Below, in pieces: positions 4,113 through 62,308 of a stretch of 64,000 nucleotides of DNA. This DNA is from Candidatus Borrarchaeum weybense (lineage in GTDB: Archaea > Asgardarchaeota > Sifarchaeia > Borrarchaeales > Borrarchaeaceae): positions 613,038-677,037 of the forward strand of contig JAHQJS010000006.1 in the NCBI GenBank assembly GCA_019057385.1, written 5' to 3'. The notes under the pieces are model-generated. The model saw only the letters and a list, made by a program, of their open reading frames with translations. It was not told the DNA's origin and searched no databases. A program made the translations under genes and the position numbers. Position 1 is the stretch's first letter; every line of letters starts with the position of its first letter.

Positions 4113-5241
4113 TACTTAGGTACTCAGGAACGGCTAATAAAACTTATATAGAAGTTCCTAAGCATACATTCTGCTCAAAAAACAAAATAGGAAAAAGAGG
4201 AAAAGGTTTCCATTTTGCGCTGGTGCCTTTCCCTCTTTGAAGGTAATCCCTATGGATTCTATTAGGAACTTTTCCGATAAAAAGTTTTCGCTCGCGGTTC
4301 ACGAAATTCTTTTGCAGTTGAAGTATAATTCGTATCCACACAATTATCTTGTTGCGAAAATTCAGGAAAGTCATGCTACTTTTTCAAGATCTCTTGTTGA
4401 AAAAGTGATACATTTTCTCTATTATAACGCGAAAAAATTAGGCAGAATTGTCATAGACTTTGAAGGGAAGGCTCTTCATTTCTATTACAATCTTGACATT
4501 TCTGAGGAAATTGCATTTCAGCGTGCAAAGAGTTTCATGGCAAATTACAGACTCTATCTTAAAAAGATGATTACGAATGACAAAAAGACAAATATTGTTG
4601 GCAGGATGGGTGAAGGAGCTGTAAGAGCTGTCTTACGGAAATTAGGTTTCACAGTCCTGCAACGAGTCAGAGCAGGGAAAGGTGATATTGACCTTATTGC
4701 AATGATTAAAAGTTTCAATTGGCGTATTTGCAAAGTAAAAGAATTCGTAATTGCTTTTGAAGTGAAGAATAGAGACAAAGAAGTAGAGTCATCTTGTCTT
4801 ACTAAATTTAATTATGCTTTAGATAAGTTTACTGCAAAAACAAACATCAAGATAGACCGAAAAATCTTAGTCGCCAAAAAATGTAGTTACAAGACGCAAA
4901 AGAGGAGTAATGGGGAGGGAATAGACATTGTTGAACTCATGCAAAAATATGTGCCGCATACTCCCTATGCAAAACCCTTTGGAAGCATATCAATCAAACA
5001 GTTTATGAGAAAAATTCTCAGGAAATTGATTAGTCTTTTTAGAGGTCTTACAGATCTCATCGAATATATTTATGCAAAAGGAATCATTTCAAACAGATTA
5101 GAACACTATAAGACTCTTCTTAATCAATTCGATTGGCTATTACTTGCTCAGTTTTTAAAAGATCATTCTCTATGTCCTGCAAAAATACGTGACTTCGTTT
5201 TAAAAATGAGGTTATCCGACTTGTTCCTGAGTACCTAAGTA
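4113..5241. repeat. 19-bp perfect inverted repeat (4113-4131 / 5223-5241) bracketing the endonuclease gene
   Basis: TACTTAGGTACTCAGGAAC versus GTTCCTGAGTACCTAAGTA. Confidence 0.9.
4237..5238 (+). CDS. PD-(D/E)XK restriction-endonuclease-like protein (Mrr-like catalytic domain)
   Basis: GEGAVRAVLRKLGF...GDIDLIA...FEVKN. Confidence 0.75.
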   Translation: MKVIPMDSIRNFSDKKFSLAVHEILLQLKYNSYPHNYLVAKIQESHATFSRSLVEKVIHFLYYNAKKLGRIVIDFEGKALHFYYNLDISEEIAFQRAKSFMANYRLYLKKMITNDKKTNIVGRMGEGAVRAVLRKLGFTVLQRVRAGKGDIDLIAMIKSFNWRICKVKEFVIAFEVKNRDKEVESSCLTKFNYALDKFTAKTNIKIDRKILVAKKCSYKTQKRSNGEGIDIVELMQKYVPHTPYAKPFGSISIKQFMRKILRKLISLFRGLTDLIEYIYAKGIISNRLEHYKTLLNQFDWLLLAQFLKDHSLCPAKIRDFVLKMRLSDLFLST

Positions 5242-5534
5242 CTTTCGTAGTGATCATAAGAAAAAACTATCACAAACTCATTACCTAAGTACTGAGGAAT
5301 ACATACCTTTATATAAGACTAAATCCCCATTTACCAATGTAAAAACTTGTGTGGTGGGATGACAAAGTGGGTGCCCTCAAATGTCCACGTTGCAATACGC
5401 AACTTTTCAAACAAAATGCTATTTATAGATGTCCTTGTTGTGGCTTTTGGGCTACGCATGAAGCACTTATAGCATCCCAAACCTCTTCTACTTTTATAAA
5501 AAATACCATAAAAGCAGTAGCATAAAAAAAAAGA

Positions 5535-5867
5535 TTATTTGAAAAGTTGAATAAGTGCAACGAATCTCTCTGTGACGTCTTTTCCTAATTTTGTAATAGT
5601 GTATTCCTCAAGGTTACGAGATTCATCGTAAACCTTTGCTTCTAAAACACCAAGTTCTACTAGAGAATCAATTCTACTACGAATTGTATTATAACTAAAT
5701 TTTCCAAATTCATTCTTAAACTCATGTAAAAGATCTGTGGTTCGCCAAGTCGTTTTCTTTTGAAACATCAAGAGCACTTCAACACTCTTTGATTTCTCGA
5801 AAGCATCTAACATTTGCATTGTTTTTTTGTTTTTGAGATCTGAAATGACTGACAATATCAACACCAA
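5535..5867 (-). CDS. Winged-helix transcription regulator (HxlR/ArsR-like), candidate repressor
   Basis: TIRSRIDSLVELGVLE...EYTITKLG; operator array upstream. Confidence 0.8.
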   Translation of the reverse strand: MVLILSVISDLKNKKTMQMLDAFEKSKSVEVLLMFQKKTTWRTTDLLHEFKNEFGKFSYNTIRSRIDSLVELGVLEAKVYDESRNLEEYTITKLGKDVTERFVALIQLFK

Positions 5868-5925
5868 CCAAAGTACCTAAGTAATAAGATATGATTTCCT
5901 CATACTAAAAACTACTTCATAAATC

Positions 5926-5981
5926 TTGTTATGACAGTTGTGATAACAAAATAAAGGTTTGGTCCTAAATTGTAATAACAA
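5926..5981. promoter_or_regulatory. Operator array, three TTGTNATNACAA-type boxes
   Basis: TTGTTATGACA, TTGTGATAACAA, TTGTAATAACAA; same layout at 26232-26319 (inverted) and 44941-45016. Confidence 0.8.
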
Positions 5982-5998
5982 CTTTATTCCTGGAATAC

Positions 5999-7312
5999 TT
6001 ACAGAAAATAAAGGTAGGCGAAGAATAATAGCCCTATTGTCGGTAAAATAAGAATAAATAGATTCATCGCTATTTTAATTATAGGCATTTTTTTGTAGAG
6101 TTGATAGATTGTAACAAAACATAGTAATACAATATTTAGAAGAGCACCAATTTTGAGGACCTGAACAAGCCGGGTGTGTGGAAGAAGTACTTTTGATTCA
6201 AATTTTTCTTTGAGGAACTGATAGGAGTTCCCTGATAACCTCTCAAAATTATAGATACTTACTCCATCGGCACTTAATCGAATGCTTTCAAGTTTTTGTT
6301 TCATTATGTTAATATCTTCAGGAATTATCGGCAAATATGTCGCCGAACGTAAGTCTATATTTCTTAGATAAGTGATAGTTTCTTGAAACGTCTTGAGATC
6401 GCCGTATTCCATCACCTTGTAAAAGTCCACAAAATTGTCCCATGAATCCCATTCCTGGAAGATTCCATATCCATCTGATCCATGGATACTTGGCCGCGTA
6501 AACACATTACATCCGATATATTTGAATTTGCTGTGGACTATTTTTGAAGCCTCTTTAACAAAGGTGGTGATGGTCTCAGTCATAAAGGTTTCCCATTTAG
6601 CCCACATTTGTGTATCTGCTTCATCAAAATCTAAAGGACTAACGCTGTAAGTTTCGGTGAATTTTTCTAAACTGTATGGATCATAGGACGGTTTATCTAA
6701 ATATCTGACGAAATCTAATATAATCCCGTCCACGCCTTTTGCAAGTATTTCTTCAATGATCGAAAAATAGAACTCACGGACTTCTGGAATCGCGGGTGAG
6801 AACCAATACTTGATCCACGAAGCTTGAGGAGTCACAGGATTGCCTTGTCTGTCCACTGCCCACCACTCACTATGGTTCTCACTACCCGTTCGTGAAGAAT
6901 AATCAATCCACAGGTCTACAATTGCATAGACTTTGAGTCCCTTTTCCTTTCCCTTTTGAATAAAATATTCCAGCACGTCAAAGTCATACGTAAAATCAGT
7001 GATAGAAATTTGACCTTGTGAAACTTCGCTGGGATAATACGTCAGAGATCCACCAACCGCTAAAGAAATTATGTTTGCGCCAAGTTGGTCAATTTGCCTA
7101 ATCTTGGCATCAATTTCTTCTTGAGTTTTATACTGACCGCTATCAAGTTTGATAGTAACGATTCTGCCTTCCTCATATTTGTTCTCTGCCGTTGTGATAT
7201 TGAAAGCAATTTGTATGAAAGCAGAACTGCAAATGATTACGAGCAATACTATGAATGCAATTCTCAAGTCGTCAGGTTTTGCCATTATTTTTTTCCTCTT
7301 CTTTTTTTTCAA
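5999..7312 (-). CDS. Membrane-anchored glycoside hydrolase-like protein (GHL10/DUF187-type TIM barrel)
   Basis: FDVLEYFI...GLKVYA, WFSPAIPEVREFY, GVDGIILDFVRY, QEWDSW; N- and C-terminal TM segments. Confidence 0.8.
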   Translation of the reverse strand: MKKKKRKKIMAKPDDLRIAFIVLLVIICSSAFIQIAFNITTAENKYEEGRIVTIKLDSGQYKTQEEIDAKIRQIDQLGANIISLAVGGSLTYYPSEVSQGQISITDFTYDFDVLEYFIQKGKEKGLKVYAIVDLWIDYSSRTGSENHSEWWAVDRQGNPVTPQASWIKYWFSPAIPEVREFYFSIIEEILAKGVDGIILDFVRYLDKPSYDPYSLEKFTETYSVSPLDFDEADTQMWAKWETFMTETITTFVKEASKIVHSKFKYIGCNVFTRPSIHGSDGYGIFQEWDSWDNFVDFYKVMEYGDLKTFQETITYLRNIDLRSATYLPIIPEDINIMKQKLESIRLSADGVSIYNFERLSGNSYQFLKEKFESKVLLPHTRLVQVLKIGALLNIVLLCFVTIYQLYKKMPIIKIAMNLFILILPTIGLLFFAYLYFL

Positions 7313-7394
7313 TTTCCTGTCTGATAACTTCTAAAACAGAACCACACAAGAAAAGTCCTCCTGATTATACTTAGGTAATGAAAAAAATAATTGA

Positions 7395-7640
7395 CTAGAG
7401 TTCAACAGGCAGTCGACTAACAATGTCCGCAATTGCTTTGGTATTCTTCTGTATGCTAGTTAACGTATGTTTCATCTTTGCTTCATGTTGTCCTATCTTA
7501 GAACACGCTTCTTTGTCGCCATGTACCTTGCATAAATGAACAACTTCCCTGAGTTCAGTTTGATTCTCAGCATACTCTTCTAAGTCTGCAACAAGAAACA
7601 AAATCCAACTATCGAGATTCAAAGGCATTGTTTCATGCAC
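7395..7640 (-). CDS. Small hypothetical protein
   Basis: 81-aa ORF with AAGGAG RBS, in the minus-strand gene run. Confidence 0.65.
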   Translation of the reverse strand: MHETMPLNLDSWILFLVADLEEYAENQTELREVVHLCKVHGDKEACSKIGQHEAKMKHTLTSIQKNTKAIADIVSRLPVEL

Positions 7641-7697
7641 ACTCCTTCTTCTTTTCTTTTTGATTATTTAAGTAGTCTAAAAGGCGACTTCTACTCA

Positions 7698-8378
7698 TTA
7701 TTTGGAGAACGATTTTTCATAATAGCTCTTCTTCCTTTTCTTGTGAATCAACGGGATCATAAGAATAAGTACAGTAATGATTACGCCGATCATAAGAATA
7801 AGTAGTTCATAACCACCGATGTAAAAGTATACATACCAAGACTCAGGATCCCAGAGTGAACTTCCCTCTTTTACTTGCGTCACAACTATTCTTTGGAAAT
7901 AACTCTCTTCTACTGTTGTCACGTAACTAATCGAATCGTGGATTCGTTGAAGCCTGAGATGGTTATTTGTATCTGAGAAATCCCATCGAATTATGTACAG
8001 ATTGATTTCAATGTAATTGAAAATGATTTCAACAGTCAGTACTACATGATGTCTCTGGTCGCCATTGAACTCATCTATGTCATATACAAGTTTTTGTGAA
8101 GTAGAAGTTACTTGAAACAAGTCAACTTTTTCTGAATTAAAGTCGAGCGTGTGTTGTTTTAAGCCGTTAGAATTGAACTCTTGAATGGCAACGTATTCGA
8201 GGTCATGTTTATTATTGATATTTTTGTACCAATAACGGAAGTGTACTTTATCGTTTCGGTAACTAAGACATATCTCCTCATTACTGATAGTATCAGTCGC
8301 GGCGACTGTTGGTTGAACAAGAACACCGACTAAGACAAGTGCTACAATTAGCGCACACATTGCTTGTTTATGATTCAT
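7698..8378 (-). CDS. Secreted, C-terminally anchored surface protein
   Basis: Probable start MNHKQAMCALIVALVLVGVLVQPTVAA (signal peptide); C-terminal TM and KKRKK tail. Confidence 0.75.
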   Translation of the reverse strand: MNHKQAMCALIVALVLVGVLVQPTVAATDTISNEEICLSYRNDKVHFRYWYKNINNKHDLEYVAIQEFNSNGLKQHTLDFNSEKVDLFQVTSTSQKLVYDIDEFNGDQRHHVVLTVEIIFNYIEINLYIIRWDFSDTNNHLRLQRIHDSISYVTTVEESYFQRIVVTQVKEGSSLWDPESWYVYFYIGGYELLILMIGVIITVLILMIPLIHKKRKKSYYEKSFSK

Positions 8379-8385
8379 TTTTTTC

Positions 8386-8700
8386 TTACTTCCCAATAAT
8401 TCTTTTAATGGTCGGAAAACCAAGTAGCGCAATACTTAGAAGTAAGCATAATGCCGCAACGACTAAGATTGCAATGTAAGGAAACCCTAGATACAATAGA
8501 TTTCCAACGATATTTTCTGAAGATGTAGTAAAGTATTGAAGAACATAGTCTTTAGCCTTAGTGACCCACAAATTAGCACCAACTGCATTAGCGATCCAAC
8601 CTCCAAGTGACCAGATCATACCTGATGCGATGAATAAAAACGCAACACCAACGAGATACCGCAATTTAGAAACTACCTTTTTGACCATTTTTCCTTTCAC
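8386..8700 (-). CDS. Small two-TM membrane protein
   Basis: Two hydrophobic helices and basic termini. Confidence 0.75.
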   Translation of the reverse strand: MKGKMVKKVVSKLRYLVGVAFLFIASGMIWSLGGWIANAVGANLWVTKAKDYVLQYFTTSSENIVGNLLYLGFPYIAILVVAALCLLLSIALLGFPTIKRIIGK

Positions 8701-8803
8701 CTTTTCTAATTACTTAGGTACTTTCGTAATATCTGTCACGCCAGGAATTGACGCAACACACGATTTATGAAAGCATTTGGGGATTTAGGCGGTGCAAATC
8801 TAT

Positions 8804-9550
8804 TCAGGGGGACATCAGCGCAAACATTTTCGAGAGTATATTATTTAATCTATGAACCCAGATTGACGCATAGAGTCCATACTTTGTTCTGATCGCAGCA
8901 AGTTCTATTCCTGCTACAACTGTAAACATGAGTAAAATTGCATTGAAGGCGTACGCTACACTATGCGCAATTCCAAAGAATAGTGTCGATGAAATCACGT
9001 ACGCAATCGCATACGCCGTTGTTTCATCAAACTTAAGAAATCGTTGCAGAACCCACTTGATAGGCTCAGGGTACGCATACCTGAAAAAAAGTTCTTCAGT
9101 CGGAGCGATCAAACAAACATGGAACATTATACTGACAAAAAACCCTTCAATTGGAGATAAGGTTTGCGTGCTTTCTAATAACAAGATTTCTGACGTTGGG
9201 GATACAGAAATCCCATAAAGCGGGCTTTCTGTGTCTACTATTGACAGACCAAGAGTGTTTTGAAAAGGTGCGAGCACATAACTAAAGATCACGTTCGTAA
9301 ATATCACAATAGTGACGCCTAAAGTAATACCCACGATAAAATTGGCTTTCTTTTCTCGCACACTTTTGTAAGAATAAAATGCATATACTGCGGCAACCGC
9401 TGAAAAGATAATCGCATAACTATAAAAAAGAAAAATTTGGAGATAGGTTAAGACGGCGAAACCAATTGTAAACATCAGTATCCCCATAGCGATAACGTAA
9501 TCTGCCGCACTGATTACAATATCTTCAGTAATAGCCTCTCTAGTTATCAA
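8804..9550 (-). CDS. CPBP/Abi (CAAX protease-like) intramembrane glutamic protease
   Basis: APTEELFFR (EExxxR), FFGIAH (FxxxH), WVHRLNN (HxxxN). Confidence 0.9.
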   Translation of the reverse strand: MITREAITEDIVISAADYVIAMGILMFTIGFAVLTYLQIFLFYSYAIIFSAVAAVYAFYSYKSVREKKANFIVGITLGVTIVIFTNVIFSYVLAPFQNTLGLSIVDTESPLYGISVSPTSEILLLESTQTLSPIEGFFVSIMFHVCLIAPTEELFFRYAYPEPIKWVLQRFLKFDETTAYAIAYVISSTLFFGIAHSVAYAFNAILLMFTVVAGIELAAIRTKYGLYASIWVHRLNNILSKMFALMSP

Positions 9551-13194: not shown

Positions 13195-13227
13195 CTACCT
13201 ACCTCACGATAACTGTCAATAGTTAAA

Positions 13228-54846: not shown

Positions 54847-55339
54847 TTCTTTTCACATTCTCTAAATCTTTATCCAAATAATTATTCAATTTCATCTATT
54901 AAACATACTACATTGTGAAAGGCGCAAAAATAAAAGTAATGCAGTCTCCTTGTGGCGTTGGTAGTTGTGGGGATTCACATTTTTATGATGAGGGCGATGA
55001 TTTCTTCGAGGATCCCTCTGACTTTTAGTAACATTCTCTTTTATTTTTTTAGATATCAAAGGACGTTAGTTTTTTATCTCTCGCATCATATACCAGATTG
55101 CAGTATCCAGAGTTGATCAACGAAGAAACAGGAATATTTCTAGCAATCAGAACGGGAGTATTTAGTTCATTTTTAGTAGAAAATATTGGTGGTAATTACG
55201 TATTTTCTCATTCTGGAAGATTAAAGACAAAATTTACAGGAGATATAAGCTTATCATCGGAAAAGATTCACATAGTTTATTGCTTCGAAAGAGTATCAGA
55301 TTTATTTTGGTAGGCAAAATAAAATAAAGTAATTGAGTG

Positions 55340-55445
55340 CAATCAAAAAGTTTTAGAGATCAATCCTGAGGATAAAAAAGCAAAGATTATTTTAAAGCGA
55401 TTGAGAGTTATGTAAGAGTGGTTGAACTCGATCCTAAGTTTGAAC
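55340..55445 (+). pseudogene. Possible TPR-protein remnant
   Basis: Broken frames QKVLEINPEDKKA and KAIESYVRVVELDPKF. Confidence 0.35.
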
Positions 55446-55452
55446 GAGGGGA

Positions 55453-56403
55453 TTGAACATAAAGAATGAAACAATAACAATCATTTTAAAGAAATTAGCA
55501 GACTTGTATCCTAATTCTATGTTCAAGGAACAATTGAAACAATATATTTCTCTTTCAGACAGTGATTTGTCAAGATATATCCATTACATTGCGGAAAAGG
55601 GCTATATTAGAAAATCAAATGGTCCTCTTTTCAAAATAACCGCTGCTGGAATTCGGTATATTGGCGAAGAAATAGTTGATAATGAAACTCTTATGATCAT
55701 ACTTGAACAACTAAACAAGAATTATCCTAATTACGTAGAGAATATATTTTTTCAAGAATTCTTAGATATGGATGATTTTTCCTCAAGACGAATATTTTCA
55801 TATCTAGAAGAAACTGGCCTTGTTGAAATAAACTGGTTTGCAGGAAAAAGATTCGACATTAAGATCACTAGTTATGGTATTGATCAACTAGTTCCTGAAA
55901 AAAATAAACTTGCGAAAGAAGATACAATTTCCATGCCAAATGAGATAGAGATGGCGCTTGAGACCCCTTTTACGAATATAACTAAAGTTTCTGAATTAAT
56001 GCAAAAACTCAAAGGAGATATCCTTTTAATTGAGAAACACTTTGATCAAAAAGGCTTTAAGTTTGTAAAAAAACTCAATCCCTTGTTTGTAAGTAATGTG
56101 AAAATCTTAATGAGTACAGATCATTTAAGTAGAGATTTTAAGGATATATTTAAAGCCTTTAAAACCGAGATGGACAATAAAGGAATAACTGTAGAACTTA
56201 GAATTCTTGATGAAAAGGATGTTGAAAGAATACATGATAGATATATTTTAAGTGAAGAAAATTGTTATAATATTCCGCCGATGAATATTATTCATAAAAA
56301 GCTAGGAGACATCAAAAGAATCCAAGATGTTGAAAGTAAAAAAGCCTATTTTAAGAAATGTTGGGCTAGAGCAACTAATATTATAAAAATTAGCACAAAA
56401 TGA
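55453..56403 (+). CDS. Tandem wHTH plus PLD-like (HDR) C-terminal domain protein
   Basis: KITAAG and KITSYG wings; IHDRYIL. Confidence 0.7.
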   Translation: MNIKNETITIILKKLADLYPNSMFKEQLKQYISLSDSDLSRYIHYIAEKGYIRKSNGPLFKITAAGIRYIGEEIVDNETLMIILEQLNKNYPNYVENIFFQEFLDMDDFSSRRIFSYLEETGLVEINWFAGKRFDIKITSYGIDQLVPEKNKLAKEDTISMPNEIEMALETPFTNITKVSELMQKLKGDILLIEKHFDQKGFKFVKKLNPLFVSNVKILMSTDHLSRDFKDIFKAFKTEMDNKGITVELRILDEKDVERIHDRYILSEENCYNIPPMNIIHKKLGDIKRIQDVESKKAYFKKCWARATNIIKISTK

Positions 56404-56421
56404 AGCCACTGTTGAATAGAA

Positions 56422-56979
56422 TCACTTGCCATACTCCTCGTTCCAACCCTTTTCTTTTGCTTCCTGAATTGAAAGTTCATTATCTACTTCAAGAAGAGTT
56501 GTTGCTAATTTTAGAAAAGTATCCATAAATTTCTTGTCATGTGCAGTCTCATAAGTTAGACCATCCGAAGAAGTGTACCGATCCTTGCTTACGATATGTG
56601 TGTATTCATGGGCAAAAAGGATCTGTGCACCAAGATCAATCAATGCTTTTATGGTATTTTTCCATTTGGGAAATCTTAATACAAAGAATATTTGTTTTTT
56701 CTTAGTAGTTTTATAGCGTTGAATTGTCATGTCTGCTCTGATATTCTCATCCTTGACGTTTTCTTGCTGATTAAGAACCAAGAAAAAAGGAGTTTTAATA
56801 TTAAACACCTTTCTTAGTCGATTTAGAGCAGTAAGAACATAATGAAACATTTGATCTTGGCAAATATCACATACGGTAAGATCAGAGCCGTTATTGGGCT
56901 TGTAATATATGTGGACCTTGTAACTGTCACATTTGAAAATATAATCATCTTCCCATTCTTTAGGCTCAGGTACTTTCAT
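56422..56979 (-). CDS. Zincin (HEXXH) metallopeptidase-like protein
   Basis: FAHEYTH...AHDKKF. Confidence 0.75.
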   Translation of the reverse strand: MKVPEPKEWEDDYIFKCDSYKVHIYYKPNNGSDLTVCDICQDQMFHYVLTALNRLRKVFNIKTPFFLVLNQQENVKDENIRADMTIQRYKTTKKKQIFFVLRFPKWKNTIKALIDLGAQILFAHEYTHIVSKDRYTSSDGLTYETAHDKKFMDTFLKLATTLLEVDNELSIQEAKEKGWNEEYGK

Positions 56980-57404
56980 CCTTTAGCCTCCTGCAACAGG
57001 GAAATTTTACGAGATTGACCTGATTCTTTTTTATAACAGTTTGCTAACGCCTCTAAGGATCGTGCAATTCTCTTTCGTGCGGGCCAATCAATTTCTCCTC
57101 TGAGTGTTTCTTCGGCGAGTCTTAAACCGTATCCGCCAAAGATTAAACGTATCAGAGGGATGATTTCTCTCTGATGAACGCCATGTTTTTTTAGATCATC
57201 AAAGATTTTCCCTGCTTTAGGTGTCAAATCTTCTGTTTCTACATGATCGAACTCTTCAATGGCACAAACGGTCATACAACAATGCACACACCGCCCCCAC
57301 TCACATATATTCTCTTTTTCGAAATATCCATCACAAACATTGCATTGTTTCCATTCGTCGGGGTCTAATTGAATATATTTTGTTTTTTCCGTCATTTTAA
57401 ACAC
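56976..57404 (-). CDS. Cys-rich protein
   Basis: CNVC...C...CVHC. Confidence 0.7.
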   Translation of the reverse strand: MFKMTEKTKYIQLDPDEWKQCNVCDGYFEKENICEWGRCVHCCMTVCAIEEFDHVETEDLTPKAGKIFDDLKKHGVHQREIIPLIRLIFGGYGLRLAEETLRGEIDWPARKRIARSLEALANCYKKESGQSRKISLLQEAKG

Positions 57405-57435
57405 CCTTAATCATATCAAACATCATTTCAAGTAA

Positions 57436-57642
57436 TTACATTGTCAATTTTTTTTGCTGATGCTTTCCTTTTGATGTTTCTTTAAGTTCAGAATATAATC
57501 TCGCATATAGATCTGGGTTAATACAATCATATTCAGCCATGCTATCAGCTACCTCTAATAACAGGCGTTCAAGTCGTTTAACACGATCTTCTATTTTCAT
57601 AATATCAACTCCGTCAAAGTCTCTCACTTCATAGGAAACCAT
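57436..57642 (-). CDS. Small hypothetical protein
   Basis: ORF within the minus-strand gene run. Confidence 0.6.
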   Translation of the reverse strand: MVSYEVRDFDGVDIMKIEDRVKRLERLLLEVADSMAEYDCINPDLYARLYSELKETSKGKHQQKKLTM

Positions 57643-57853
57643 TCTAAACTCTCATCAAGTTTTTTATCTTCAGCAATCTCTTTAGAGATTATAAACATCT
57701 GATAAATAAATCTCTTTTTTCCCTTAATCGGTTGGTTGTTATTTGCGCTCAATAGTAAAAGAATCCATTTTTCAATGGGTTTAATCATTTTACATCAAAA
57801 CATCCAATTACGTCAATGGTTAATTTCATACACAATAACTTGTAATTAGTGTT

Positions 57854-58273
57854 TTAGCACGCCTCTCCAACAAGATGTTTAGCCAATTTTTTGTTTAAAC
57901 CAATTTTTGTTAACTTTCGATACGTTCTACTTCCAATATTGCCTTTTCTTTCTTTTTTACAAAGTTTCATGGCTTCGAGTAATTCCCTTCTTTCCCTCTC
58001 CCATACTTTGAGATCTGCTTTTGCTTTGGTTAGTATCTCATCCGCTTGCTTTTTTGCATCCCTGATAATTTTTCTCGCTCGTTTTTGAGCTTCTTCTAAT
58101 TGTGCACGTGCCTTTTGAAGTGCTTTCATATTTTCTTTTAATAATTGATTGTATTCTTCGATGAGTTCATCCGCTCCGTCCTTTTCGTACTGTTCACGAT
58201 CTAAGATTTCTTTAACTTGCTTTTTAGCCTCAGTAATTAATGTTGCATGATGTTTTTGGTTTTTCATTCTCAT
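57854..58273 (-). CDS. Coiled-coil protein
   Basis: A/K/E-rich helices; start abuts a palindrome copy. Confidence 0.7.
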   Translation of the reverse strand: MRMKNQKHHATLITEAKKQVKEILDREQYEKDGADELIEEYNQLLKENMKALQKARAQLEEAQKRARKIIRDAKKQADEILTKAKADLKVWERERRELLEAMKLCKKERKGNIGSRTYRKLTKIGLNKKLAKHLVGEAC

Positions 58274-58423
58274 TACCTAAGTAGTTTTAATTTTGGTGGG
58301 ATAGGAGACGCCTAATCCATTCAGGACTTTTATAAAAATGACCAGTCTGTTACAAGATGCAGTTTTTTGATCGCGGCATTCATCTCTGTATTCTCGTGTC
58401 TCCTATCCTTTCACCACAATTAA

Positions 58424-58603
58424 TTAGTGGTCCGTTAACCCCATTGCAATTCCTTCTTCTACTACTGCGTTGTCAACGTACAATTTTATTGCTTCGATAC
58501 CCGCTTTTTTCAAATGACCACGCTTTTTTCCGAACTTGTGTATAGCAACGTCTCGAAACTCATTTTCTAAATCGTCTGGAATTTCAACAGTGATTTTTCC
58601 CAT
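58424..58603 (-). CDS. 59-aa ribbon-helix-helix regulator (below ORF-track cutoff)
   Basis: MGKITVEIPDDLENEFR...GHLKKAGIEAI; AGGTG RBS. Confidence 0.75.
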   Translation of the reverse strand: MGKITVEIPDDLENEFRDVAIHKFGKKRGHLKKAGIEAIKLYVDNAVVEEGIAMGLTDH

Positions 58604-58721
58604 TGGTTACACCTTATAAGATAATCGAATATCTTATATACCATCTACCAATATATAATTTATGGTACTCAATTTTTAGGTATTATAACATGAGTACTTA
58701 AGTAATTAGGAAGGTGAAAGA

Positions 58722-59609
58722 TTGGCAAAACTCATTGAGTTTTTTGACAAAACACCAGAAGGGATTGTTTGTCCGCACTTCTGGATGTTGAAATTTGCCC
58801 GAGGGTGCAGATATGGTTGTTCGTACTGTTATCTCGCCCTTACTTATCGAATACAGGGCGTCAAGCCACATCTGTATTCTTGGAATCAACTAAAAGACGA
58901 CTTTTGTAATTTTTGTGAAAAAGTAGAATATCCTACTCTTCTCAATGCAGGGGAATTGACTGACTCTTTCTTGATGGAAAACACGGATAATCCGTTTTCA
59001 ACATTTATTGTGCCACTTTTTGAGTCACAGAACGTACATAAAATACTTTTCTTGACGAAATCAAATAACCTTCGCAATTTTCGGTTTTTATTTGAGCAAG
59101 GCAACGTGACACAAACAATTCTTTCCTGGAGTGTCAATATTCCGAAGGTGGCCCATCAATGGGAAAAAGGCGCACCAAGTCCTATAAGACGAATACATGC
59201 ATTTGGCAACGCCACTTATTGTATTCCAGGATCGACACGAATACGAATAGATCCCATGCTTCCTGTAGAAAATTGGAAAACGAAATATGAGGATTTACTA
59301 AAGAATATTTTTGACTTTGGCTTTCCTGAGAGAATAACTCTTGGAACTCTTCGCTATTTTCCTTCGCTTCCCTCAAGGTTGAAGAAGTTAGAACGAGACA
59401 CTTCCTTATTTGACCTCTTTCCAGCAGAACGCTGTGCTGAGGATGGGAGGTATCGCTTAACGGATCGAGAAGAAATCTATCGTCACATGATCCGCTTATT
59501 AGAAGAAAAATTTGGCTATTCTCGATATGCACTTTGTAAGGAGACTCAGGACGTATGGGATAATCTGGGTCTTGATTCTAAGAGATGTCTGTGTAACTGT
59601 CAACTATAA
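58722..59609 (+). CDS. Spore-photoproduct-lyase-like radical SAM protein
   Basis: GCRYGCSYCYL, GELTDS, LTKS, RIDPM, TLGTLR, LCKE. Confidence 0.82.
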   Translation: MAKLIEFFDKTPEGIVCPHFWMLKFARGCRYGCSYCYLALTYRIQGVKPHLYSWNQLKDDFCNFCEKVEYPTLLNAGELTDSFLMENTDNPFSTFIVPLFESQNVHKILFLTKSNNLRNFRFLFEQGNVTQTILSWSVNIPKVAHQWEKGAPSPIRRIHAFGNATYCIPGSTRIRIDPMLPVENWKTKYEDLLKNIFDFGFPERITLGTLRYFPSLPSRLKKLERDTSLFDLFPAERCAEDGRYRLTDREEIYRHMIRLLEEKFGYSRYALCKETQDVWDNLGLDSKRCLCNCQL

Positions 59610-59627
59610 TTTGAGGAGGGTTAAGAA

Positions 59628-60026
59628 ATAACAAGCCGTGAAATTGAAAAGAAAATCTATCCGCTAACCATAGACCGCGATTTGATTCCTTTAAACCAAC
59701 TAGAGGTAATTTTAGGGGCTAAAATTCGTGAATTAGACTACATACGGATCTGCCCCAACTGTGAGAATGTCTATTTTACGTGTAAAAACTGCTCTTATGA
59801 TTCTCCGATAGTGTGTCGAGGTTATTATTTATCGCGTAGATCGGTGGAAGAAATACCGAAAAAATATGATGTTACTCGATGTCGAGACTGCCGCACAATT
59901 CATCTTCTAAGACATACAGAGGTCATAAATTTTGAAGACGCACTCTTTAAAGAGATACCATTTGAGCAATTTTGTGGGCTATGCAGTGAACACTTTGCTT
60001 ACGAGGACGATGAGGAGGAGGGATAA
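59628..60026 (+). CDS. Multi-zinc-finger protein (probable ATA start)
   Basis: CPNC, CKNC, CRDC, CGLC; GAGGAGGG RBS before ATA 59628. Confidence 0.7.
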   Translation: MTSREIEKKIYPLTIDRDLIPLNQLEVILGAKIRELDYIRICPNCENVYFTCKNCSYDSPIVCRGYYLSRRSVEEIPKKYDVTRCRDCRTIHLLRHTEVINFEDALFKEIPFEQFCGLCSEHFAYEDDEEEG

Positions 60027-60028
60027 AC

Positions 60029-60514
60029 ATTCCAAGAACTTCTGTACTTATTGGTGAAGAAGGCATCGAAATTGCCAAAGAAAAACTAGCAGAACTAAAG
60101 ATCTTTGCAACCAATGGTACGGGGACGTGGGGTCAGGCAGACATAGTTGCATCCTTTAACGAACGTCCTCTCTATATCGAAGTTAAATATAGTCGTTTGT
60201 GGAACTACTACGTTCATAACGGGAAAAAATGGAAGCGTTTAGCAAATATCCACATCACTAAAGTACAATTAGAGGGGCTACAAGAGGCAGAACGGAATGG
60301 AATTTTTTCGATATTCCTCTTTCTTTTAAAAACACAGCGCAAAGTTATTACAAAGTTTTTGTTCCCTTCAGAAGTCCTCTTGAGTTCCAATGATAAGAAA
60401 GAATATGGCAAAGTAGCCATAACAGAAATTCTTGATATAGGACGCCCGTTAAGAGATTTACCTCTTCTTTTGTCAATGAAGGAAACAGACATAATACAGA
60501 AGGCGATCAGGTAA
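60029..60514 (+). CDS. PD-(D/E)XK nuclease (Hjc-like), extended to an ATT start
   Basis: The in-frame upstream extension holds the catalytic motifs IGEEG...QADIVA...YIEVK; GGAGGAGG RBS. Confidence 0.7.
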   Translation: MPRTSVLIGEEGIEIAKEKLAELKIFATNGTGTWGQADIVASFNERPLYIEVKYSRLWNYYVHNGKKWKRLANIHITKVQLEGLQEAERNGIFSIFLFLLKTQRKVITKFLFPSEVLLSSNDKKEYGKVAITEILDIGRPLRDLPLLLSMKETDIIQKAIR

Positions 60515-60515
60515 A

Positions 60516-61526
60516 ATGAACCAATTTTGGCGGTTTTACGAATATGCAGCATTAGCAGCAGTTGCACAATCGGTAGGACCTATTTTTACTAATGTGAGAT
60601 TCGGCGATTCTACAAGTCCTGAATATGACGGACTTTCCCTTGATGGTCAAACTGTTGTAGAAGTGAAATCGTATCCTCTTTCCAGAGATGATTGTAAAAA
60701 ACTTGTAGAAAAGACAAACAAGCACTTTGAAAAACTGATTATAATTGCGCCAGGATTCAAAAACAAATATCTTGAGAAGGGACAGGATATTTGGATTGAA
60801 TATATGACCTTTACGACTGAAAATTTTCCTTCCCGGCTACAACAATTTTACCAGGAATGGGAACCACAACTACCTAAGTATTTTGAAACACGTTTAGGGT
60901 GGCATCATTTTTCATACGTCATGTCCAGCGGTAGATTCAGAAACCAAATTGACAAGAGAATTTCAAACACAGAAAAATTGAAGCGTGAAGTCACCAAAAG
61001 AGTCGTTTTTCCTCTTAGAATTTTTGTTTCGATCTCAAAGTGGCGAGATCCAAAGCAGTTATTTTTTAGAAAAAATTCAAACACTCTCTTAGATTCGATA
61101 TTAGCTTTTGATATTGATTGTAGCGATCTGCATGTGCCATGTCTCCTGACTCAAAGTGGTATATGCGAAATTGGACTAGACCATGTAAAACACGAAACGA
61201 TGAAGTTATTTGATTTTTGCGAGGATAAATTAAGTTTAACTGACTTTATGATTTATTTTAGTGGAAGAAAAGGCTTTCATGTTTATTTTTGCGATTATAA
61301 TTCTTCAAAATCATTCAAAAAAGAACTTGAGTTCCGAAAAGACCTCGTTGAGAAATTAAAAGAAAACAACATTCGAGCAGATAGTTCAATCACAGAACAC
61401 CCCAAAGCGATGGTTGGGCTCCCAAGTTCTTTACATGGCTACACGATGAGGGAAATCTGCCTTGTCGGTAGAAGCCGAAAGAGGATAACCTCTTTTCGTC
61501 CACCTAAGCCTTTCAATAGGCGATGA
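60516..61526 (+). CDS. PD-(D/E)XK-like domain fused to an archaeo-eukaryotic primase (PriS-like) domain
   Basis: EYDG...VEVKS; LAFDID, FSGRKGFHVY, LPSSLH. Confidence 0.82.
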   Translation: MNQFWRFYEYAALAAVAQSVGPIFTNVRFGDSTSPEYDGLSLDGQTVVEVKSYPLSRDDCKKLVEKTNKHFEKLIIIAPGFKNKYLEKGQDIWIEYMTFTTENFPSRLQQFYQEWEPQLPKYFETRLGWHHFSYVMSSGRFRNQIDKRISNTEKLKREVTKRVVFPLRIFVSISKWRDPKQLFFRKNSNTLLDSILAFDIDCSDLHVPCLLTQSGICEIGLDHVKHETMKLFDFCEDKLSLTDFMIYFSGRKGFHVYFCDYNSSKSFKKELEFRKDLVEKLKENNIRADSSITEHPKAMVGLPSSLHGYTMREICLVGRSRKRITSFRPPKPFNRR

Positions 61527-61706
61527 GGACCTAATATCGTGCGTTACGGGAATTCTATAGTGTGATGATCGTGGTGGAGTGAGCAGAATCCCGTAATACG
61601 ACGACTGAAAGGTGATGAGGAATTGTATTTTACAAATGGTATCTCAGTCGTGATGATTGCGGTGGAATGAGCGGAGTGCCATAATAAGAGAAAAAGGGGT
61701 GATAAG

Positions 61707-62054
61707 TTGGGAAGGAAGAAAATAAAGATCACAGATGAGGAATTAGAACTAGAATCACAAGAATACACGTTAGAAGATTACAAAGAAACATTACATAGAG
61801 GGCAACTGTGTTTTGCAGTATTTAATGTCTGTCTTACAATCGTTACCATTGGAGTTTTATTACTAACATTAAACCTTGAGTACATAGCTCTACTAAGTTG
61901 TATTAATTTCTTCTTTGCATTCGTGTTATTTTTATCTCTCTTTGAATATCGCAAGAACGAAAGTATCGAAAGCAGTTACACCAAATTCTTAAAACGTAGA
62001 GCATATCGACGTAGACAAAATAAAAATGTTCCTCGCGGATGGATCCGCCTGTAA
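61707..62054 (+). CDS. Two-TM protein
   Basis: GGGGTGA RBS; hydrophobic core and basic tail. Confidence 0.7.
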   Translation: MGRKKIKITDEELELESQEYTLEDYKETLHRGQLCFAVFNVCLTIVTIGVLLLTLNLEYIALLSCINFFFAFVLFLSLFEYRKNESIESSYTKFLKRRAYRRRQNKNVPRGWIRL

Positions 62055-62308
62055 CATACCTTTTTCTTTCTTTTTTTGAAAACTTAATATTAGTACTTAG
62101 GTAATGAGGATCAATTAGTAAAAGATATAAAGTAGTTCTTGGTTCTATAGAAGACTGTACAATGGTGATTGTTGTGACATCAGTTTTATCGACAAAAGAA
62201 GTCTCTGTCGAAAAAGGAAGAGAAGAGGAAAAGACGGTCTCTCAACTCGCTCTTGATGGTCTAAAATTAATTAAAGAATGTAAAGAAATCATCAAGTCGT
62301 AAATTCAC

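What the first reader, a model, noticed from the sequence alone, without database searches (positions are those of the whole stretch)
4113..62103. Element-wide 10-bp signature TACYTARGTA (40 copies) punctuating gene boundaries
Seen: 40 exact copies (TACTTAGGTA 16, its reverse complement TACCTAAGTA 15, TACTTAAGTA 8, TACCTAGGTA 1) plus one-mismatch variants (7665, 21238, 24792, 30382, 38350, 52078). A rough hand estimate at about 35% GC gives fewer than one copy by chance. Most are intergenic. Four overlap gene ends or stop codons (5232, 32215, 53163, 53526) and three lie inside long genes (10251, 28619, 60871), which suggests selection for spacing rather than promoter function alone. None were seen in the short host flanks. 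The asymmetric form dominates (31/40). Inference: binding site of an element-encoded protein that marks the whole genome (matS/parS-like organisation, selective encapsidation or global silencing), or a crossover core for cassette exchange. The two symmetric forms are what crossover at the central TA between inverted sites would produce.
Basis: partly seen in the sequence, partly recalled or inferred. Interest (0 to 1): 0.88.

Follow-up and report, generated by a model that had tools for sequence, protein, structure and literature searches.

The report
Palindromic docking sites across Asgard element
A 61-kb mobile element integrated in an Asgard archaeon (Borrarchaeum-like) carries 40 copies of a 10-base palindrome that is almost absent from the rest of the host genome; the copies sit at the joints between its genes, and are most likely landing sites for one of the element's own DNA-binding proteins that controls, probably silences, the whole element.

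Summary
TACYTARGTA occurs 40 times in the window, against 0.36 expected. Only 8 more copies lie in the other 4.1 Mb of the genome, where 11-15 are expected. With its conserved flanks (A.core.T) the count is 33 against 1.

All copies lie inside an integrated element of about 61.5 kb (window ~1998-63555), which I delimited against empty sites in sister genomes.

The real unit is a ~26-bp palindrome made of three 8-bp boxes. It shows no base-pair covariation, which points to a protein site rather than a hairpin. Of the 40 copies, 35 are intergenic or overlap a gene end. They mark junctions between genes, often just after an oligo-T tract.

A second strain carries the same element with 34 sites. 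Whole gene cassettes have been swapped between conserved sites, and two joints lie at the core edge. Gene order is otherwise unchanged.

Best reading (about 0.45): a genome-wide operator or roadblock network for an unidentified element-encoded protein, resembling stoperators or KorB sites. The sites may secondarily serve as joints for cassette exchange. A dedicated recombination site is the main rival.

This scan has noted similar element-wide palindromes on other archaeal mobile elements.

The parts
1998..63555 (.). Integrated mobile element of about 61.5 kb that holds all 40 sites
   Evidence: Homology of the left flank with G004 and G001 ends at window 1997. The right flank resumes at 63609 (G004) or 64541 (G001). 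Homology with strain B ends at 63555. A 9-bp direct repeat ATACTTCTT at 1992 and 63487 is a weak att candidate.
4113..4122 (.). site TACTTAGGTA
   Evidence: It lies 114 nt upstream of the Mrr-like gene at 4237 and 20 nt upstream of a TATA-like CTTATATA.
5232..5241 (.). site TACCTAAGTA
   Evidence: It overlaps the stop of gene 4237-5238. It is degenerate in strain B.
5282..5291 (.). site TACCTAAGTA
   Evidence: It lies 16 nt upstream of TTTATATA and 57 nt upstream of the Zn-ribbon ORF at 5349.
5874..5883 (.). site TACCTAAGTA
   Evidence: It lies 18 nt upstream of the ATG (5855) of the HxlR-like wHTH gene on the minus strand.
7368..7377 (.). site TACTTAGGTA
   Evidence: In the direction of transcription it follows a T7 tract, 55 nt before the start of the GH-like gene at 7312. 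Strain B has a 2-bp deletion in it.
8711..8720 (.). site TACTTAGGTA
   Evidence: It lies 10 nt upstream of ORF 8386-8700 (minus strand).
10251..10260 (.). site TACTTAAGTA inside the 1215-aa gene
13914..13923 (.). site TACTTAGGTA
   Evidence: It lies 26 nt upstream of 13228-13887 (minus strand).
15961..15970 (.). site TACTTAAGTA
   Evidence: It lies 12 nt upstream of 15217-15948 (minus strand), with a T6 tract 25 nt before it in the direction of transcription.
18461..18470 (.). site TACCTAAGTA
   Evidence: It lies 36 nt upstream of the gene at 18507.
21222..21263 (.). Array upstream of the MCM gene: exact sites at 21222, 21230 and 21254, plus a one-mismatch site at 21238, all in 8-bp register
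23058..23067 (.). site TACTTAAGTA
   Evidence: The whole 29-nt spacer reads T7 tract, site, 7 nt, ATG.
24784..24809 (.). Array upstream of PCNA-C2H2: exact sites at 24784 and 24800, plus a one-mismatch site at 24792, in 8-bp register
25837..25846 (.). site TACTTAAGTA
   Evidence: It follows a T6 tract and lies 37 nt upstream of the gene at 25884.
26730..26739 (.). site TACTTAGGTA
   Evidence: It abuts the MCM-like ORF at 26740.
27692..27701 (.). site TACCTAAGTA
   Evidence: It lies 1 nt after the stop of 26740-27690 and 41 nt before the AAA gene.
28619..28628 (.). site TACTTAAGTA inside the AAA gene, at about residue 293, just before the AAA domain (residue 317)
   Evidence: Its left flank resembles the module at 21188-21234 (family D6).
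29486..29495 (.). site TACTTAGGTA that starts a 61-nt leader module shared with 33597
   Evidence: family D12, 95% identity.
31609..31618 (.). site TACCTAGGTA, the only CC form
32215..32224 (.). site TACTTAAGTA
   Evidence: It overlaps the stop of the HTH-like ORF 31982-32221.
33599..33608 (.). site TACTTAGGTA, the left joint of a swapped cassette
   Evidence: Homology with strain B ends at 33611. A contig of run X2 ends at 33608 and continues with unlike sequence.
35536..35545 (.). site TACCTAAGTA inside the window-specific cassette
36067..36076 (.). site TACCTAAGTA, the right joint of the swapped cassette
   Evidence: Homology resumes at 36043, 24 nt before the core.
36446..36455 (.). site TACCTAAGTA in a convergent spacer
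   Evidence: On the minus strand a T7 tract lies 17 nt before it.
38270..38306 (.). Two sites (38270, 38297) within a 27-bp tandem repeat; strain B has one copy
44411..44420 (.). site TACTTAGGTA
   Evidence: It lies 189 nt from the right end of the swapped restriction-modification cassette.
44882..44891 (.). site TACCTAAGTA
   Evidence: It follows a T6 tract.
48161..48170 (.). site TACTTAGGTA within a near-perfect 26-bp palindrome; its centre is flipped to CTAA in strains B and C
49521..49530 (.). site TACCTAAGTA in a 75-nt module duplicated at 50817
   Evidence: family D10.
50848..50857 (.). site TACCTAAGTA, the right joint of a swapped cassette
   Evidence: Real homology begins at the left edge of the core.
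53163..53172 (.). site TACCTAAGTA at the end of a gene
53526..53535 (.). site TACTTAGGTA at a gene junction
58274..58283 (.). site TACCTAAGTA, the only site in a divergent spacer
58695..58704 (.). site TACTTAAGTA
   Evidence: It lies 17 nt upstream of the gene at 58722 and downstream of TATA-like words.
60871..60880 (.). site TACCTAAGTA inside the primase gene, encoding part of PQLPKYFE
   Evidence: It resembles the module at 35533 (family D4).
62094..62103 (.). site TACTTAGGTA, the last site, between the body of the element and the integrase gene
   Evidence: It follows a T7 tract.
5535..5855 (-). HxlR/MarR-like wHTH protein, the candidate binder I rank first, though only weakly
   Evidence: Pfam HxlR, E 5e-5. 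It is 92% identical in strain B. A site lies 18 nt upstream of its ATG. It has no other relatives in the database.
19732..20220 (-). pRN-like wHTH protein, a candidate binder
   Evidence: Weak Pfam hit to Sulfolobus_pRN, E 0.0026. It lies in a block identical between the strains.
36135..36404 (+). 89-aa wHTH (TrmB-like) gene flanked by sites 36067 and 36446, a candidate binder
   Evidence: The gene is replaced in runs X3 and X4.
24834..25814 (+). PCNA fused to a C-terminal C2H2 zinc finger, a speculative reader of the sites
   Evidence: Its closest PCNA is the host's own, at 47% identity.
37847..38005 (+). AbrB/MazE-like 52-aa protein, an unlikely binder
   Evidence: The alleles in the two strains are 37% identical, although the motif is the same.
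51196..51972 (-). Serine recombinase of 258 aa, the enzyme the rival explanation would need
   Evidence: Pfam Resolvase plus Recombinase domains. It is present in strain B.
62309..63484 (-). Tyrosine integrase at the right end of the element

Best explanation
The motif is the strong central box of a ~26-bp palindromic protein-binding site, consensus TTCCTnAS-TACYTARGTA-STnAGGAA. This can be read as three 8-bp boxes of the type ACYTARGT.

An as yet unidentified DNA-binding protein encoded by the element recognises each half-site by sequence. It probably binds as a dimer. Further dimers can add at 8-bp steps where boxes are repeated.

The sites are placed at about 30 junctions between genes or small operons. 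Typically a site lies a few to about 30 nt after the oligo-T tract that ends the upstream gene, and 7-130 nt before the next start codon. When the sites are occupied, the protein blocks RNA polymerase that initiates at the junction or reads through it. One factor thereby controls, and most likely silences, nearly the whole integrated element. Only a few palindrome-free promoters with ordinary TATA boxes stay independent.

Because the site is the one sequence shared by all junctions and by related elements, it also serves as the island of identity at which gene cassettes are exchanged.

Shown here: the motif is specific to the element; its anatomy; the lack of covariation; its placement at junctions; its conservation in other strains; cassette joints at sites.

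Inferred: that a protein binds; which protein; and whether the effect is repression, roadblock or activation.
For: Specificity:
- 40 copies in the element against 8 in the other 4.1 Mb, which is chance level there.
- The 14-bp form occurs 33 times against 1.
- No enrichment was found in 60 related genomes.
- A host factor is therefore unlikely, because it would have no host targets.

Anatomy:
- Conservation extends from -8 to +17. A at -2 and T at +11 each occur in 28 of 31 sites, and G at +15 in 21 of 31.
- Both halves fit the consensus ARGTAnTnaGGWA.
- Complementarity between the flanks equals what the single-position frequencies predict at every position. This is sequence recognition, not a stem.
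- Arrays in exact 8-bp register occur at 21222/21230/21238/21254, at 24784/24792/24800 and at 48161/48169, as expected for cooperative binding.

Placement:
- 35 of 40 sites are outside ORFs or at ORF ends, in an element that is 82% coding.
- Site orientation is unrelated to gene direction, 13 against 11.
- Sites occur in 25 of 47 tandem spacers, 4 of 6 convergent spacers and only 1 of 7 divergent spacers.
- A T5 or longer tract precedes the site in 22 of 32 gene-end regions that contain a site.

Conservation:
- Strain B has 34 sites in about 53 kb of the element and none in the 10 kb beyond the integrase.
- 27 of 30 aligned sites are unchanged.
- Cassettes found only in strain B bring their own copies of the site.

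Independence from restriction-modification: the two strains carry different restriction-modification systems but the same motif.

Known precedent for such networks: cluster A mycobacteriophage stoperators, 20-30 sites per genome (PMC6550527).
Against: - No binding protein has been identified. Pfam finds only weak wHTH candidates, an AbrB whose alleles differ between strains, and a truncated RHH.
- The distance from the site to start codons and to TATA-like words is not fixed. Presence of a site shows no association with presence or absence of a TATA-like word (odds ratio 0.69, p 0.77). Repression and activation therefore cannot be told apart.
- Purifying selection on the core is not demonstrable with the data in hand: 5 differences in 300 core positions against 223 in 6818 other intergenic positions.
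- A simple homodimer model does not explain the significant excess of the asymmetric centre TTAG/CTAA.
Confidence: 0.45

Rival explanations
1. The sites are dedicated crossover sites of a site-specific recombinase. The likely enzyme is the element's 258-aa serine recombinase, less likely the tyrosine integrase. Gene cassettes would be exchanged, inserted or deleted through these sites, as in an integron or shufflon. The 26-bp site, made of two 12-bp arms around a central TA, has the layout of hix, gix or res site I.
For: - A serine recombinase is encoded and is conserved in strain B.
- The site has a 12-2-12 palindromic layout with a central TA.
- Three cassette replacements between strains are bracketed by conserved sites. 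The joints lie 3 nt after core 33599, at the edge of core 50848, and 24 nt before core 36067.
- In strain B the right flank of the 33599 site is a paralog of the flank at 38297. This is a new junction made exactly at the core.
- The centre of site 48161 is flipped in strains B and C, together with a flank identical to that of site 53163.
- Sites inside genes resemble intergenic modules.
- Contigs from other metagenome runs break at or next to sites.
Against: - Gene order is fully collinear across about 53 kb in strain B, and in the pieces of a third strain. There is no inversion or deletion between any two sites.
- Forty near-identical sites with no consistent orientation would scramble the element.
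- Four sharp changes in strain-to-strain identity (14785, about 31.5-31.7 kb, 36158, 51994) lie 80-860 nt from any site.
- One indel uses a different 17-bp direct repeat.
- Given that breakpoints are intergenic, their nearness to sites is not significant by my estimate.
- Tandem arrays in 8-bp register have no role in crossover.
- The TT and CC forms are not equal in number: 8 against 1.
- Contig breaks in unitig assemblies are expected at repeats regardless.
Confidence: 0.2
2. The site is a class-specific promoter element. An activator encoded by the element binds it and recruits the host transcription machinery to junctions that lack an ordinary TATA box. This would resemble MotA boxes or the late-gene activator sites of phages. 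The 60-90-nt modules of core plus leader would be portable promoters.
For: - About 30 sites lie 0-131 nt upstream of a start codon.
- In paralogous modules the conserved part runs from the core downstream through the leader, while the upstream part is not conserved (families D10-D12).
- Most junctions with a site have no TATA-like word: 21 of 26.
Against: - Divergent spacers, which contain only promoters, almost never carry a site (1 of 7). Convergent spacers, which contain none, often do (4 of 6).
- Site presence and absence of a TATA-like word are not associated (p 0.77).
- The distance from site to start codon varies from 0 to 131 nt.
- Pfam finds no TBP, TFB or RNA polymerase gene in the element.
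Confidence: 0.15
3. The sites mark the element's DNA for replication, segregation or packaging. For example they could be docking or parking sites for the PCNA-C2H2 clamp, priming sites for the element's primase, or centromere-like sites.
For: - The element encodes MCM, an MCM-like protein, a PriS-like primase and a PCNA fused to a C2H2 finger.
- A double site lies directly upstream of the PCNA-C2H2 gene.
- Sites are spread over the whole element with a median spacing of 1.3 kb.
Against: - Pfam and PHROGs find no ParA, ParB, terminase or packaging ATPase.
- The strong preference for intergenic positions and gene junctions is not needed for such roles.
- Nothing links the zinc finger to this sequence.
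Confidence: 0.1
4. The motif acts in RNA as a hairpin or processing signal, or it is a REP-like selfish palindrome.
For: - It is palindromic and lies between genes transcribed in the same direction.
- Its distribution, common in tandem and convergent spacers and rare in divergent ones, resembles that of REP elements.
Against: - There is no covariation in the flanks.
- The core alone gives only a 3-bp stem.
- It is not spread through the host genome: 1 extended copy outside the element against 33 inside.
- Pfam finds no RAYT or IS200-type gene.
Confidence: 0.05

Closest known systems
Stoperators of cluster A mycobacteriophages (L5, Bxb1), as described in PMC6550527 and PMC9283540
   Same: Both have dozens of copies of one short site spread over a temperate element of about 50-60 kb, mostly in short spacers between genes rather than in classical promoters. 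Both sites are specific to the element. One protein is thought to control the whole genome.
   Different: Stoperators are asymmetric 13-mers bound by a monomer and are oriented with transcription. This site is a 26-bp palindrome with no orientation bias (13 against 11). It forms tandem arrays in 8-bp register. It lies in an archaeal element. Its binding protein is unknown.
KorB OB and KorA OA global operator network of IncP-1 plasmid RK2. This comparison comes from my own knowledge and from earlier scan note e1-2581716; I did not read the papers here.
   Same: Both have palindromic operators repeated around a mobile element at varied distances from promoters, giving one regulator control over the element's backbone.
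   Different: RK2 has 12 and 7 sites, against 40 here. KorB is a ParB-family protein, and Pfam finds no ParB-like gene in this element.
MetJ met boxes and omega-repressor heptads, which are ribbon-helix-helix operators built from tandem 7-8-bp boxes (from my own knowledge)
   Same: The operator is built from short boxes repeated head to tail at 8-bp steps, with one strong box and weaker neighbours. Arrays occur at key genes.
   Different: The only RHH reading frame in the element is a truncated remnant (40370-40462). There is no evidence on the fold of the binding protein.
hix, gix and res site I crossover sites of small serine recombinases, and the dispersed recombination motif of Sulfolobus conjugative plasmids of the pNOB8/pING type (recalled from memory; not found in the paper library)
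   Same: Both are palindromes of about 26 bp with 12-bp arms around a central dinucleotide. A serine recombinase is encoded in the element. Variable regions between strains are bordered by the motif.
   Different: No rearrangement between sites was seen in three strains. There are far more sites than in any known invertase or resolvase system. The arrays in 8-bp register have no counterpart.
Unclassified Asgard mobile elements of Atabeyarchaeia (PMC11529989)
   Same: These elements have a similar gene content: many membrane proteins including giants of 1200-1400 aa, a CAAX protease, PCNA and a type IIG restriction-modification gene. They cannot be classed as virus or plasmid.
   Different: A term search of that paper found no mention of palindromes or binding sites. 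No sequence relatives of this element were found outside its own species.

Membership tests
Stoperator network (cluster A mycobacteriophages) | 20 or more copies of one site dispersed over the element, mostly outside promoters | tested here: met
   There are 40 copies. 25 of 47 tandem spacers and 4 of 6 convergent spacers carry one, but only 1 of 7 divergent spacers.
Stoperator network (cluster A mycobacteriophages) | [quoted passage not shown] | tested here: not met
   The site is a palindrome. The orientation of its asymmetric centre relative to the downstream gene is 13 against 11.
Stoperator network (cluster A mycobacteriophages) | An immunity repressor binds the sites and blocks elongation | not testable with these tools
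KorB/KorA-type global operators | Palindromic operator repeated around the element's backbone | tested here: met
KorB/KorA-type global operators | A ParB-family (KorB) protein is encoded | tested here: not met
   No ParB_N or ParA hit in any ORF of 60 aa or more or in PHROGs.
Serine-recombinase crossover site (hix, gix, res site I) | Imperfect palindrome of about 26-28 bp around a central 2-bp crossover | tested here: met
   The layout is 12-2-12 with a central TA.
Serine-recombinase crossover site (hix, gix, res site I) | A serine recombinase is encoded nearby | tested here: met
   Gene 51196-51972, with Resolvase and Recombinase domains.
Serine-recombinase crossover site (hix, gix, res site I) | Inversions or deletions between sites are seen among copies or strains | tested here: not met
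   All homology blocks with strains B and C are collinear. The source run shows no alternative junctions at sites, though contigs give only weak evidence on this.
Integron attC cassette array | The site's structure is conserved but its sequence is not; length 57-141 bp; fixed orientation at the 3' end of each cassette | tested here: not met
   Here the sequence is conserved, there is no covariation, the site is 26 bp long and it has no orientation.
REP/BIME elements | Spread through the host chromosome and linked to a RAYT transposase | tested here: not met
   One extended copy lies outside the element against 33 inside. No Y1 transposase was found.
RHH tandem-box operators (MetJ, omega) | Boxes of 7-8 bp in tandem register | tested here: met
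   Arrays at 21222-21263, 24784-24809 and 48161-48178. The flanks are degenerate copies of the central box.
RHH tandem-box operators (MetJ, omega) | An intact RHH protein is encoded | tested here: not met
   Only a C-terminal remnant exists at 40370-40462, matching RHH_1 model positions 24-39.

The most novel reading that the evidence does not exclude
The palindrome is the shared punctuation mark of an Asgard mobile element organised as an array of exchangeable cassettes. One element-encoded reader parks on every junction. It silences or insulates each cassette and also defines the joints where cassettes are swapped between related elements. This would be an archaeal system that combines stoperator/KorB-like genome-wide control with integron-like modularity.
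Probability: 0.12. Interest if true: 0.85.

Novelty: new variant of a known kind. Interest (0 to 1): 0.6.

Why it matters
Mobile elements of Asgard archaea are almost entirely uncharacterised, and nothing is known about how they are regulated. This element offers a clean, testable handle. A single 26-bp site repeated 40 times should pull down its reader protein in one DAP-seq or EMSA experiment.

If the site network silences the integrated element, it would be the first genome-wide operator or roadblock system described in archaea. It would also be an independent invention of the logic seen in mycobacteriophage stoperators and in plasmid KorB.

The strain comparison also shows the element evolving by swapping whole cassettes between these sites. 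This bears on how genes move among the closest prokaryotic relatives of eukaryotes.

Tried and rejected
- RNA evidence: no RNA holder was listed for this DNA, so transcript starts and ends could not be examined.
- Relatives elsewhere: IMG/VR scans with the 603-aa and PCNA-C2H2 proteins found nothing.
- MCM homologues: the nearest outside the species are 41% identical or less, and their contigs (L005, L007) carry no repeated motif.
- Pattern scans: scans of viral and genome collections for paired sites returned only chance hits and unrelated tandem repeats.
- Sister genomes: same-genus genomes lack the element.
- PCNA search: a phylum-wide search only showed that the element's PCNA is closest to the host's own.
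- Host promoter consensus: attempts to derive it from ORF upstreams and from tRNA upstreams were too noisy to use.
- TATA test: whether sites replace TATA boxes showed no association.
- Restriction avoidance: avoidance of CTTAAG or CCTAGG as the cause of the asymmetric centre is rejected, because these words are not avoided in the host.
- Host depletion: depletion of the motif in the host is rejected, 8 observed against 11-15 expected.
- Third-strain contigs: two Logan contigs could not be fetched.
- HxlR-like protein: it has no relatives beyond strain B, so co-variation of regulator and site could not be tested.
- Strain B record: it is not held for whole-record searches.
- Literature: searching for the motif words gave only unrelated primers.

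Full report
**1. The observation**

There are 16 TACTTAGGTA, 15 TACCTAAGTA, 8 TACTTAAGTA and 1 TACCTAGGTA. Dinucleotide-preserving shuffles give a mean of 0.36 and never more than 3.

The whole 4.18-Mb assembly holds 48 copies, so only 8 lie outside the window. Markov models of order 2 to 5, trained on the genome without the window, expect 11-15 there. The host therefore carries the word at chance frequency, and the element carries it at roughly 340 times that density.

With the two best-conserved flanking bases added (A.TACYTARGTA.T), the count is 33 in the window against 1 elsewhere. Twelve one-mismatch variants all lie inside the element. None of 60 related genomes shows any enrichment.

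**2. What carries the sites**

The window holds an integrated mobile element.
- Nucleotide homology of the left flank with two same-genus genomes stops at window 1997, just after the ketol-acid reductoisomerase gene.
- The right flank resumes at 63609 in one genome and at 64541 in the other. In one genome the two flanks are only 143 bp apart.
- A second strain of the element stops matching at 63555.
- A 9-bp direct repeat, ATACTTCTT, sits at 1992 and 63487. It is only a weak att candidate.

The element is thus about 61.5 kb. Its recognisable genes are:
- MCM, an MCM-like protein and an AAA ATPase;
- a PCNA fused to a C2H2 zinc finger;
- a PriS-like primase;
- a tyrosine integrase, and a 258-aa serine recombinase next to a VRR-NUC nuclease;
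- a BcgI-like restriction-modification pair;
- a block rich in membrane proteins, including a 1215-aa protein and a CAAX protease.

No capsid, terminase, ParA or ParB was recognised. No known virus or plasmid is close.

Proteins of the second strain are labelled Candidatus Borrarchaeum sp. in public records. That genus belongs to the Asgard archaea.

**3. Anatomy of the site**

I aligned the 31 asymmetric sites in one orientation. Conservation runs from -8 to +17:
- A at -2 in 28 of 31 sites;
- T at +11 in 28 of 31;
- G at +15 in 21 of 31;
- T-rich at -8 and -4.

Pooling the 80 half-sites gives the consensus ARGTAnTnaGGWA, read outward from the dyad. The unit is therefore a ~26-bp palindrome, TTCCTnAS-TACYTARGTA-STnAGGAA. 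It can be read as three 8-bp boxes of the type ACYTARGT, a strong central box flanked by weaker copies.

Three loci carry longer arrays in exact 8-bp register: 21222/21230/21238/21254 upstream of MCM, 24784/24792/24800 upstream of PCNA-C2H2, and 48161/48169.

At every flank position, complementarity between the two sides equals what the single-position frequencies predict. Each half is conserved as sequence, and the two halves do not co-vary. This argues for recognition by a protein and against an RNA or DNA stem.

The asymmetric centre (TTAG or CTAA) is over-represented: 31 observed against 19.4 expected, chi-square 14.35, p 1.5e-4. Avoidance of restriction sites does not explain this, because CTTAAG and CCTAGG are not avoided in the host. 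I have no explanation for this preference.

**4. Placement**

The element is 82% coding, yet 33 sites are fully intergenic, 2 overlap stop codons and 5 lie in ORFs (binomial p 3e-21). About 30 sites lie 0-131 nt upstream of a start codon, on either strand. The orientation of the asymmetric centre is unrelated to the direction of the downstream gene, 13 against 11.

The sites are not simply promoter elements. They occur in 25 of 47 spacers between co-directional genes and in 4 of 6 convergent spacers, but in only 1 of 7 divergent spacers. In 22 of 32 gene-end regions with a site, a T5 or longer tract precedes it. Archaeal RNA polymerase usually terminates at such tracts, which is established knowledge.

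The shortest example is the 29-nt spacer at 23046-23074, which reads T7 tract, site, 7 nt, ATG. In the replication arm (21-36 kb), 12 of 19 gene junctions carry a site. The other junctions have the same T-tract and GGRGCTT leader without a site.

The position of the site relative to the few canonical TATA-like words varies. It lies upstream of them at 4113 and 5282, and downstream at 58695. Presence of a site is not associated with presence or absence of a TATA-like word. The data therefore place the sites at junctions between genes, but they do not show whether the sites repress, block or activate transcription.

**5. A second and a third strain**

Exact-sequence look-ups found near-identical proteins on two contigs of another assembly, which I call strain B. 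One contig is 63.7 kb and the other 27.8 kb. A Logan contig represents a third strain, strain C.

Strain B is collinear with the window over about 53 kb. It has 34 exact sites in the element and none in the 10 kb beyond the integrase. Of the 30 window sites that can be aligned, 27 are unchanged.
- Site 5232 carries a substitution.
- Site 7368 carries a 2-bp deletion.
- Site 48161 has its centre flipped from TTAG to CTAA, with a right flank identical to that of site 53163. This looks like gene conversion between sites.

Core positions differ at 5 of 300, against 223 of 6818 for other intergenic positions. This is lower, but not significantly so.

The two strains carry different restriction-modification systems, BcgI-like in the window and a 960-aa MmeI-like enzyme in strain B. 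They share the same motif, so the motif is not the target of those enzymes.

**6. Cassettes and joints**

Three blocks are completely replaced between the strains.
- 33612-36042: the window has a 603-aa and a 120-aa gene here; strain B has an HNH nuclease and an M48 peptidase.
- 40369-44221: the restriction-modification systems.
- 48283-50823: four genes in the window against five in strain B.

The conserved sites that bracket these blocks are 33599 and 36067, 38297 and 44411, and 48161 and 50848. The joints lie as follows:
- 3 nt after core 33599;
- 24 nt before core 36067;
- 112 nt after core 48161;
- at the left edge of core 50848;
- 189 nt before core 44411;
- one joint is far from any site.

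A contig of an independent metagenome run also ends exactly at 33608 and continues with unlike sequence.

In strain B the sequence to the right of the 33599 site is a paralog of the leader that follows site 38297. Strain-specific cassettes carry their own sites inside 60-90-nt modules that recur in front of different genes. Within the window, too, module families begin at the core and extend downstream through the leader (families D10-D12).

There is evidence on the other side.
- Four sharp switches between identical and 5-20% divergent sequence lie 80-860 nt from any site.
- One 1.3-kb indel is flanked by its own 17-bp direct repeat.
- No inversion or deletion between two sites is seen in any strain.
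- Once one allows for breakpoints being intergenic, their nearness to sites is not statistically significant. This is my estimate.
- Contig breaks in unitig assemblies are expected at repeats in any case.

**7. Which protein?**

Pfam finds the following candidates:
- an HxlR/MarR-like wHTH protein (5535-5855, minus strand), with a site 18 nt upstream of its ATG;
- a weak pRN-like wHTH protein (19732-20220);
- a 79-aa HTH protein whose stop codon overlaps site 32215;
- an 89-aa TrmB-like wHTH protein flanked by sites 36067 and 36446;
- an AbrB/MazE-like 52-aa protein (37847-38005);
- several Zn-ribbon ORFs;
- the PCNA-C2H2 fusion.

The AbrB alleles of the two strains are only 37% identical although the motif is the same, which argues against AbrB. 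The HxlR-like protein is 92% conserved between the strains, but it has no other relatives, so co-variation of protein and site cannot be tested. The only ribbon-helix-helix frame is a truncated remnant at 40370-40462. The binder is therefore not identified. The HxlR-like protein is my first guess, held at low confidence.

**8. Explanation and rivals**

The best-supported reading is a network of binding sites for one sequence-specific protein encoded by the element. The sites are placed at about 30 gene junctions, so that one factor controls nearly the whole element. Silencing or roadblock of the integrated element is the most likely mode, because of three features: the link to gene ends, the palindromic form without orientation, and the arrays in front of the replication genes.

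The sites probably also serve, passively or actively, as the joints where cassettes are exchanged.

The main rival is a dedicated recombination site for the serine recombinase. Its favourable points are the 12-2-12 layout around a central TA and the joints at core edges. Collinearity of the strains, the sheer number of sites and the arrays in 8-bp register count against it.

A class-specific activator site, a replication or segregation mark, and an RNA-level or REP-like element are less likely, for the reasons given under each rival.

**9. Comparison with known systems**

The closest functional analogues are the stoperators of cluster A mycobacteriophages. These are 20-30 asymmetric 13-bp sites per genome, oriented with transcription, bound by the immunity repressor to stop elongation (PMC6550527). 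The KorB/KorA operator network of plasmid RK2 is a second analogue, cited from my own knowledge and from an earlier scan note.

The site studied here fails the defining features of both. It is palindromic and has no orientation bias, and no ParB-family gene is present. It may work like them, but it is not a member of either family.

Its tandem 8-bp boxes recall MetJ and omega-repressor operators, but no intact RHH protein is encoded.

A term search of the Asgard mobile-element papers I opened found no mention of such a motif.

Earlier notes of this scan report comparable element-wide palindromes on other archaeal mobile elements: a Pyrodictium provirus and Conexivisphaera-type elements. The phenomenon may therefore be more general.

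Noticed in passing
window 20427-20449, 21062-21084, 26645-26668: A second element-specific repeat. Three arrays of about three tandem 8-bp units (TAGTCGCA) flank gene 20523-20966 and precede the MCM-like gene. The 15-mer TAGTCGCATAGTCGC occurs 4 times in the genome, all within these arrays. These may be iterons of the replication origin, or the operator of another regulator.
   Followed up: partly
window 39672-40371: A repeat of about 700 bp with copies at 87-90% identity on two other contigs of the genome (C7:367773, C4:957638) and weaker copies in a sister genome. It is probably a small mobile element. It abuts a truncated RHH gene remnant at 40370-40462.
   Followed up: partly
window 38328-38344 and 39662-39678: A 17-bp direct repeat, AATTTGAAAATTTTGAA, flanks the 394-aa gene 38411-39595. 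Strain B lacks this gene and keeps one copy of the repeat.
   Followed up: yes
window 5927-5984 and 26229-26286: A 58-nt inverted repeat, 83% complementary, links the left arm to the non-coding region 26.2-26.7 kb, where other readers noted a tRNA-like RNA.
   Followed up: no
window 24834-25814: PCNA with a C-terminal C2H2 zinc finger. Its PCNA part is closest, at 47% identity, to the host genus's own PCNA, which suggests capture from the host. The 400-genome search aligned only the PCNA part (through about residue 310) and does not show whether any other PCNA carries a finger.
   Followed up: partly
window 40782-44058 versus L264:14654 onward and L266: Two strains of the same element carry different restriction-modification cassettes at the same position. 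The window has a BcgI-like methylase-nuclease with an S subunit. Strain B has a 960-aa MmeI-like type IIG enzyme.
   Followed up: yes
window 11617-13224: The N-terminal third of the 1215-aa surface-like protein is replaced by unrelated sequence in strain B, where the protein is 1375 aa. The rest of the gene is 93% identical. This pattern fits a variable host-recognition domain.
   Followed up: partly
window 20966-36135: Every gene junction of the replication arm carries a T-tract followed by a GGRGCTT-containing leader before the ribosome-binding site, whether or not the palindrome is present. When the palindrome is present, the leader starts 19 or 28 nt after the start of the core.
   Followed up: partly
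window 16726-16971 and 17026-17298: Two adjacent small paralogous genes on the minus strand, 71% identical over 89 nt (family D9).
   Followed up: no
L079:4478-4557 (IMG/VR contig of 5.4 kb): An unrelated viral contig with five TACCTAAGTA copies, most 14 bp apart. They look like iterons. This is probably a coincidence of sequence.
   Followed up: no
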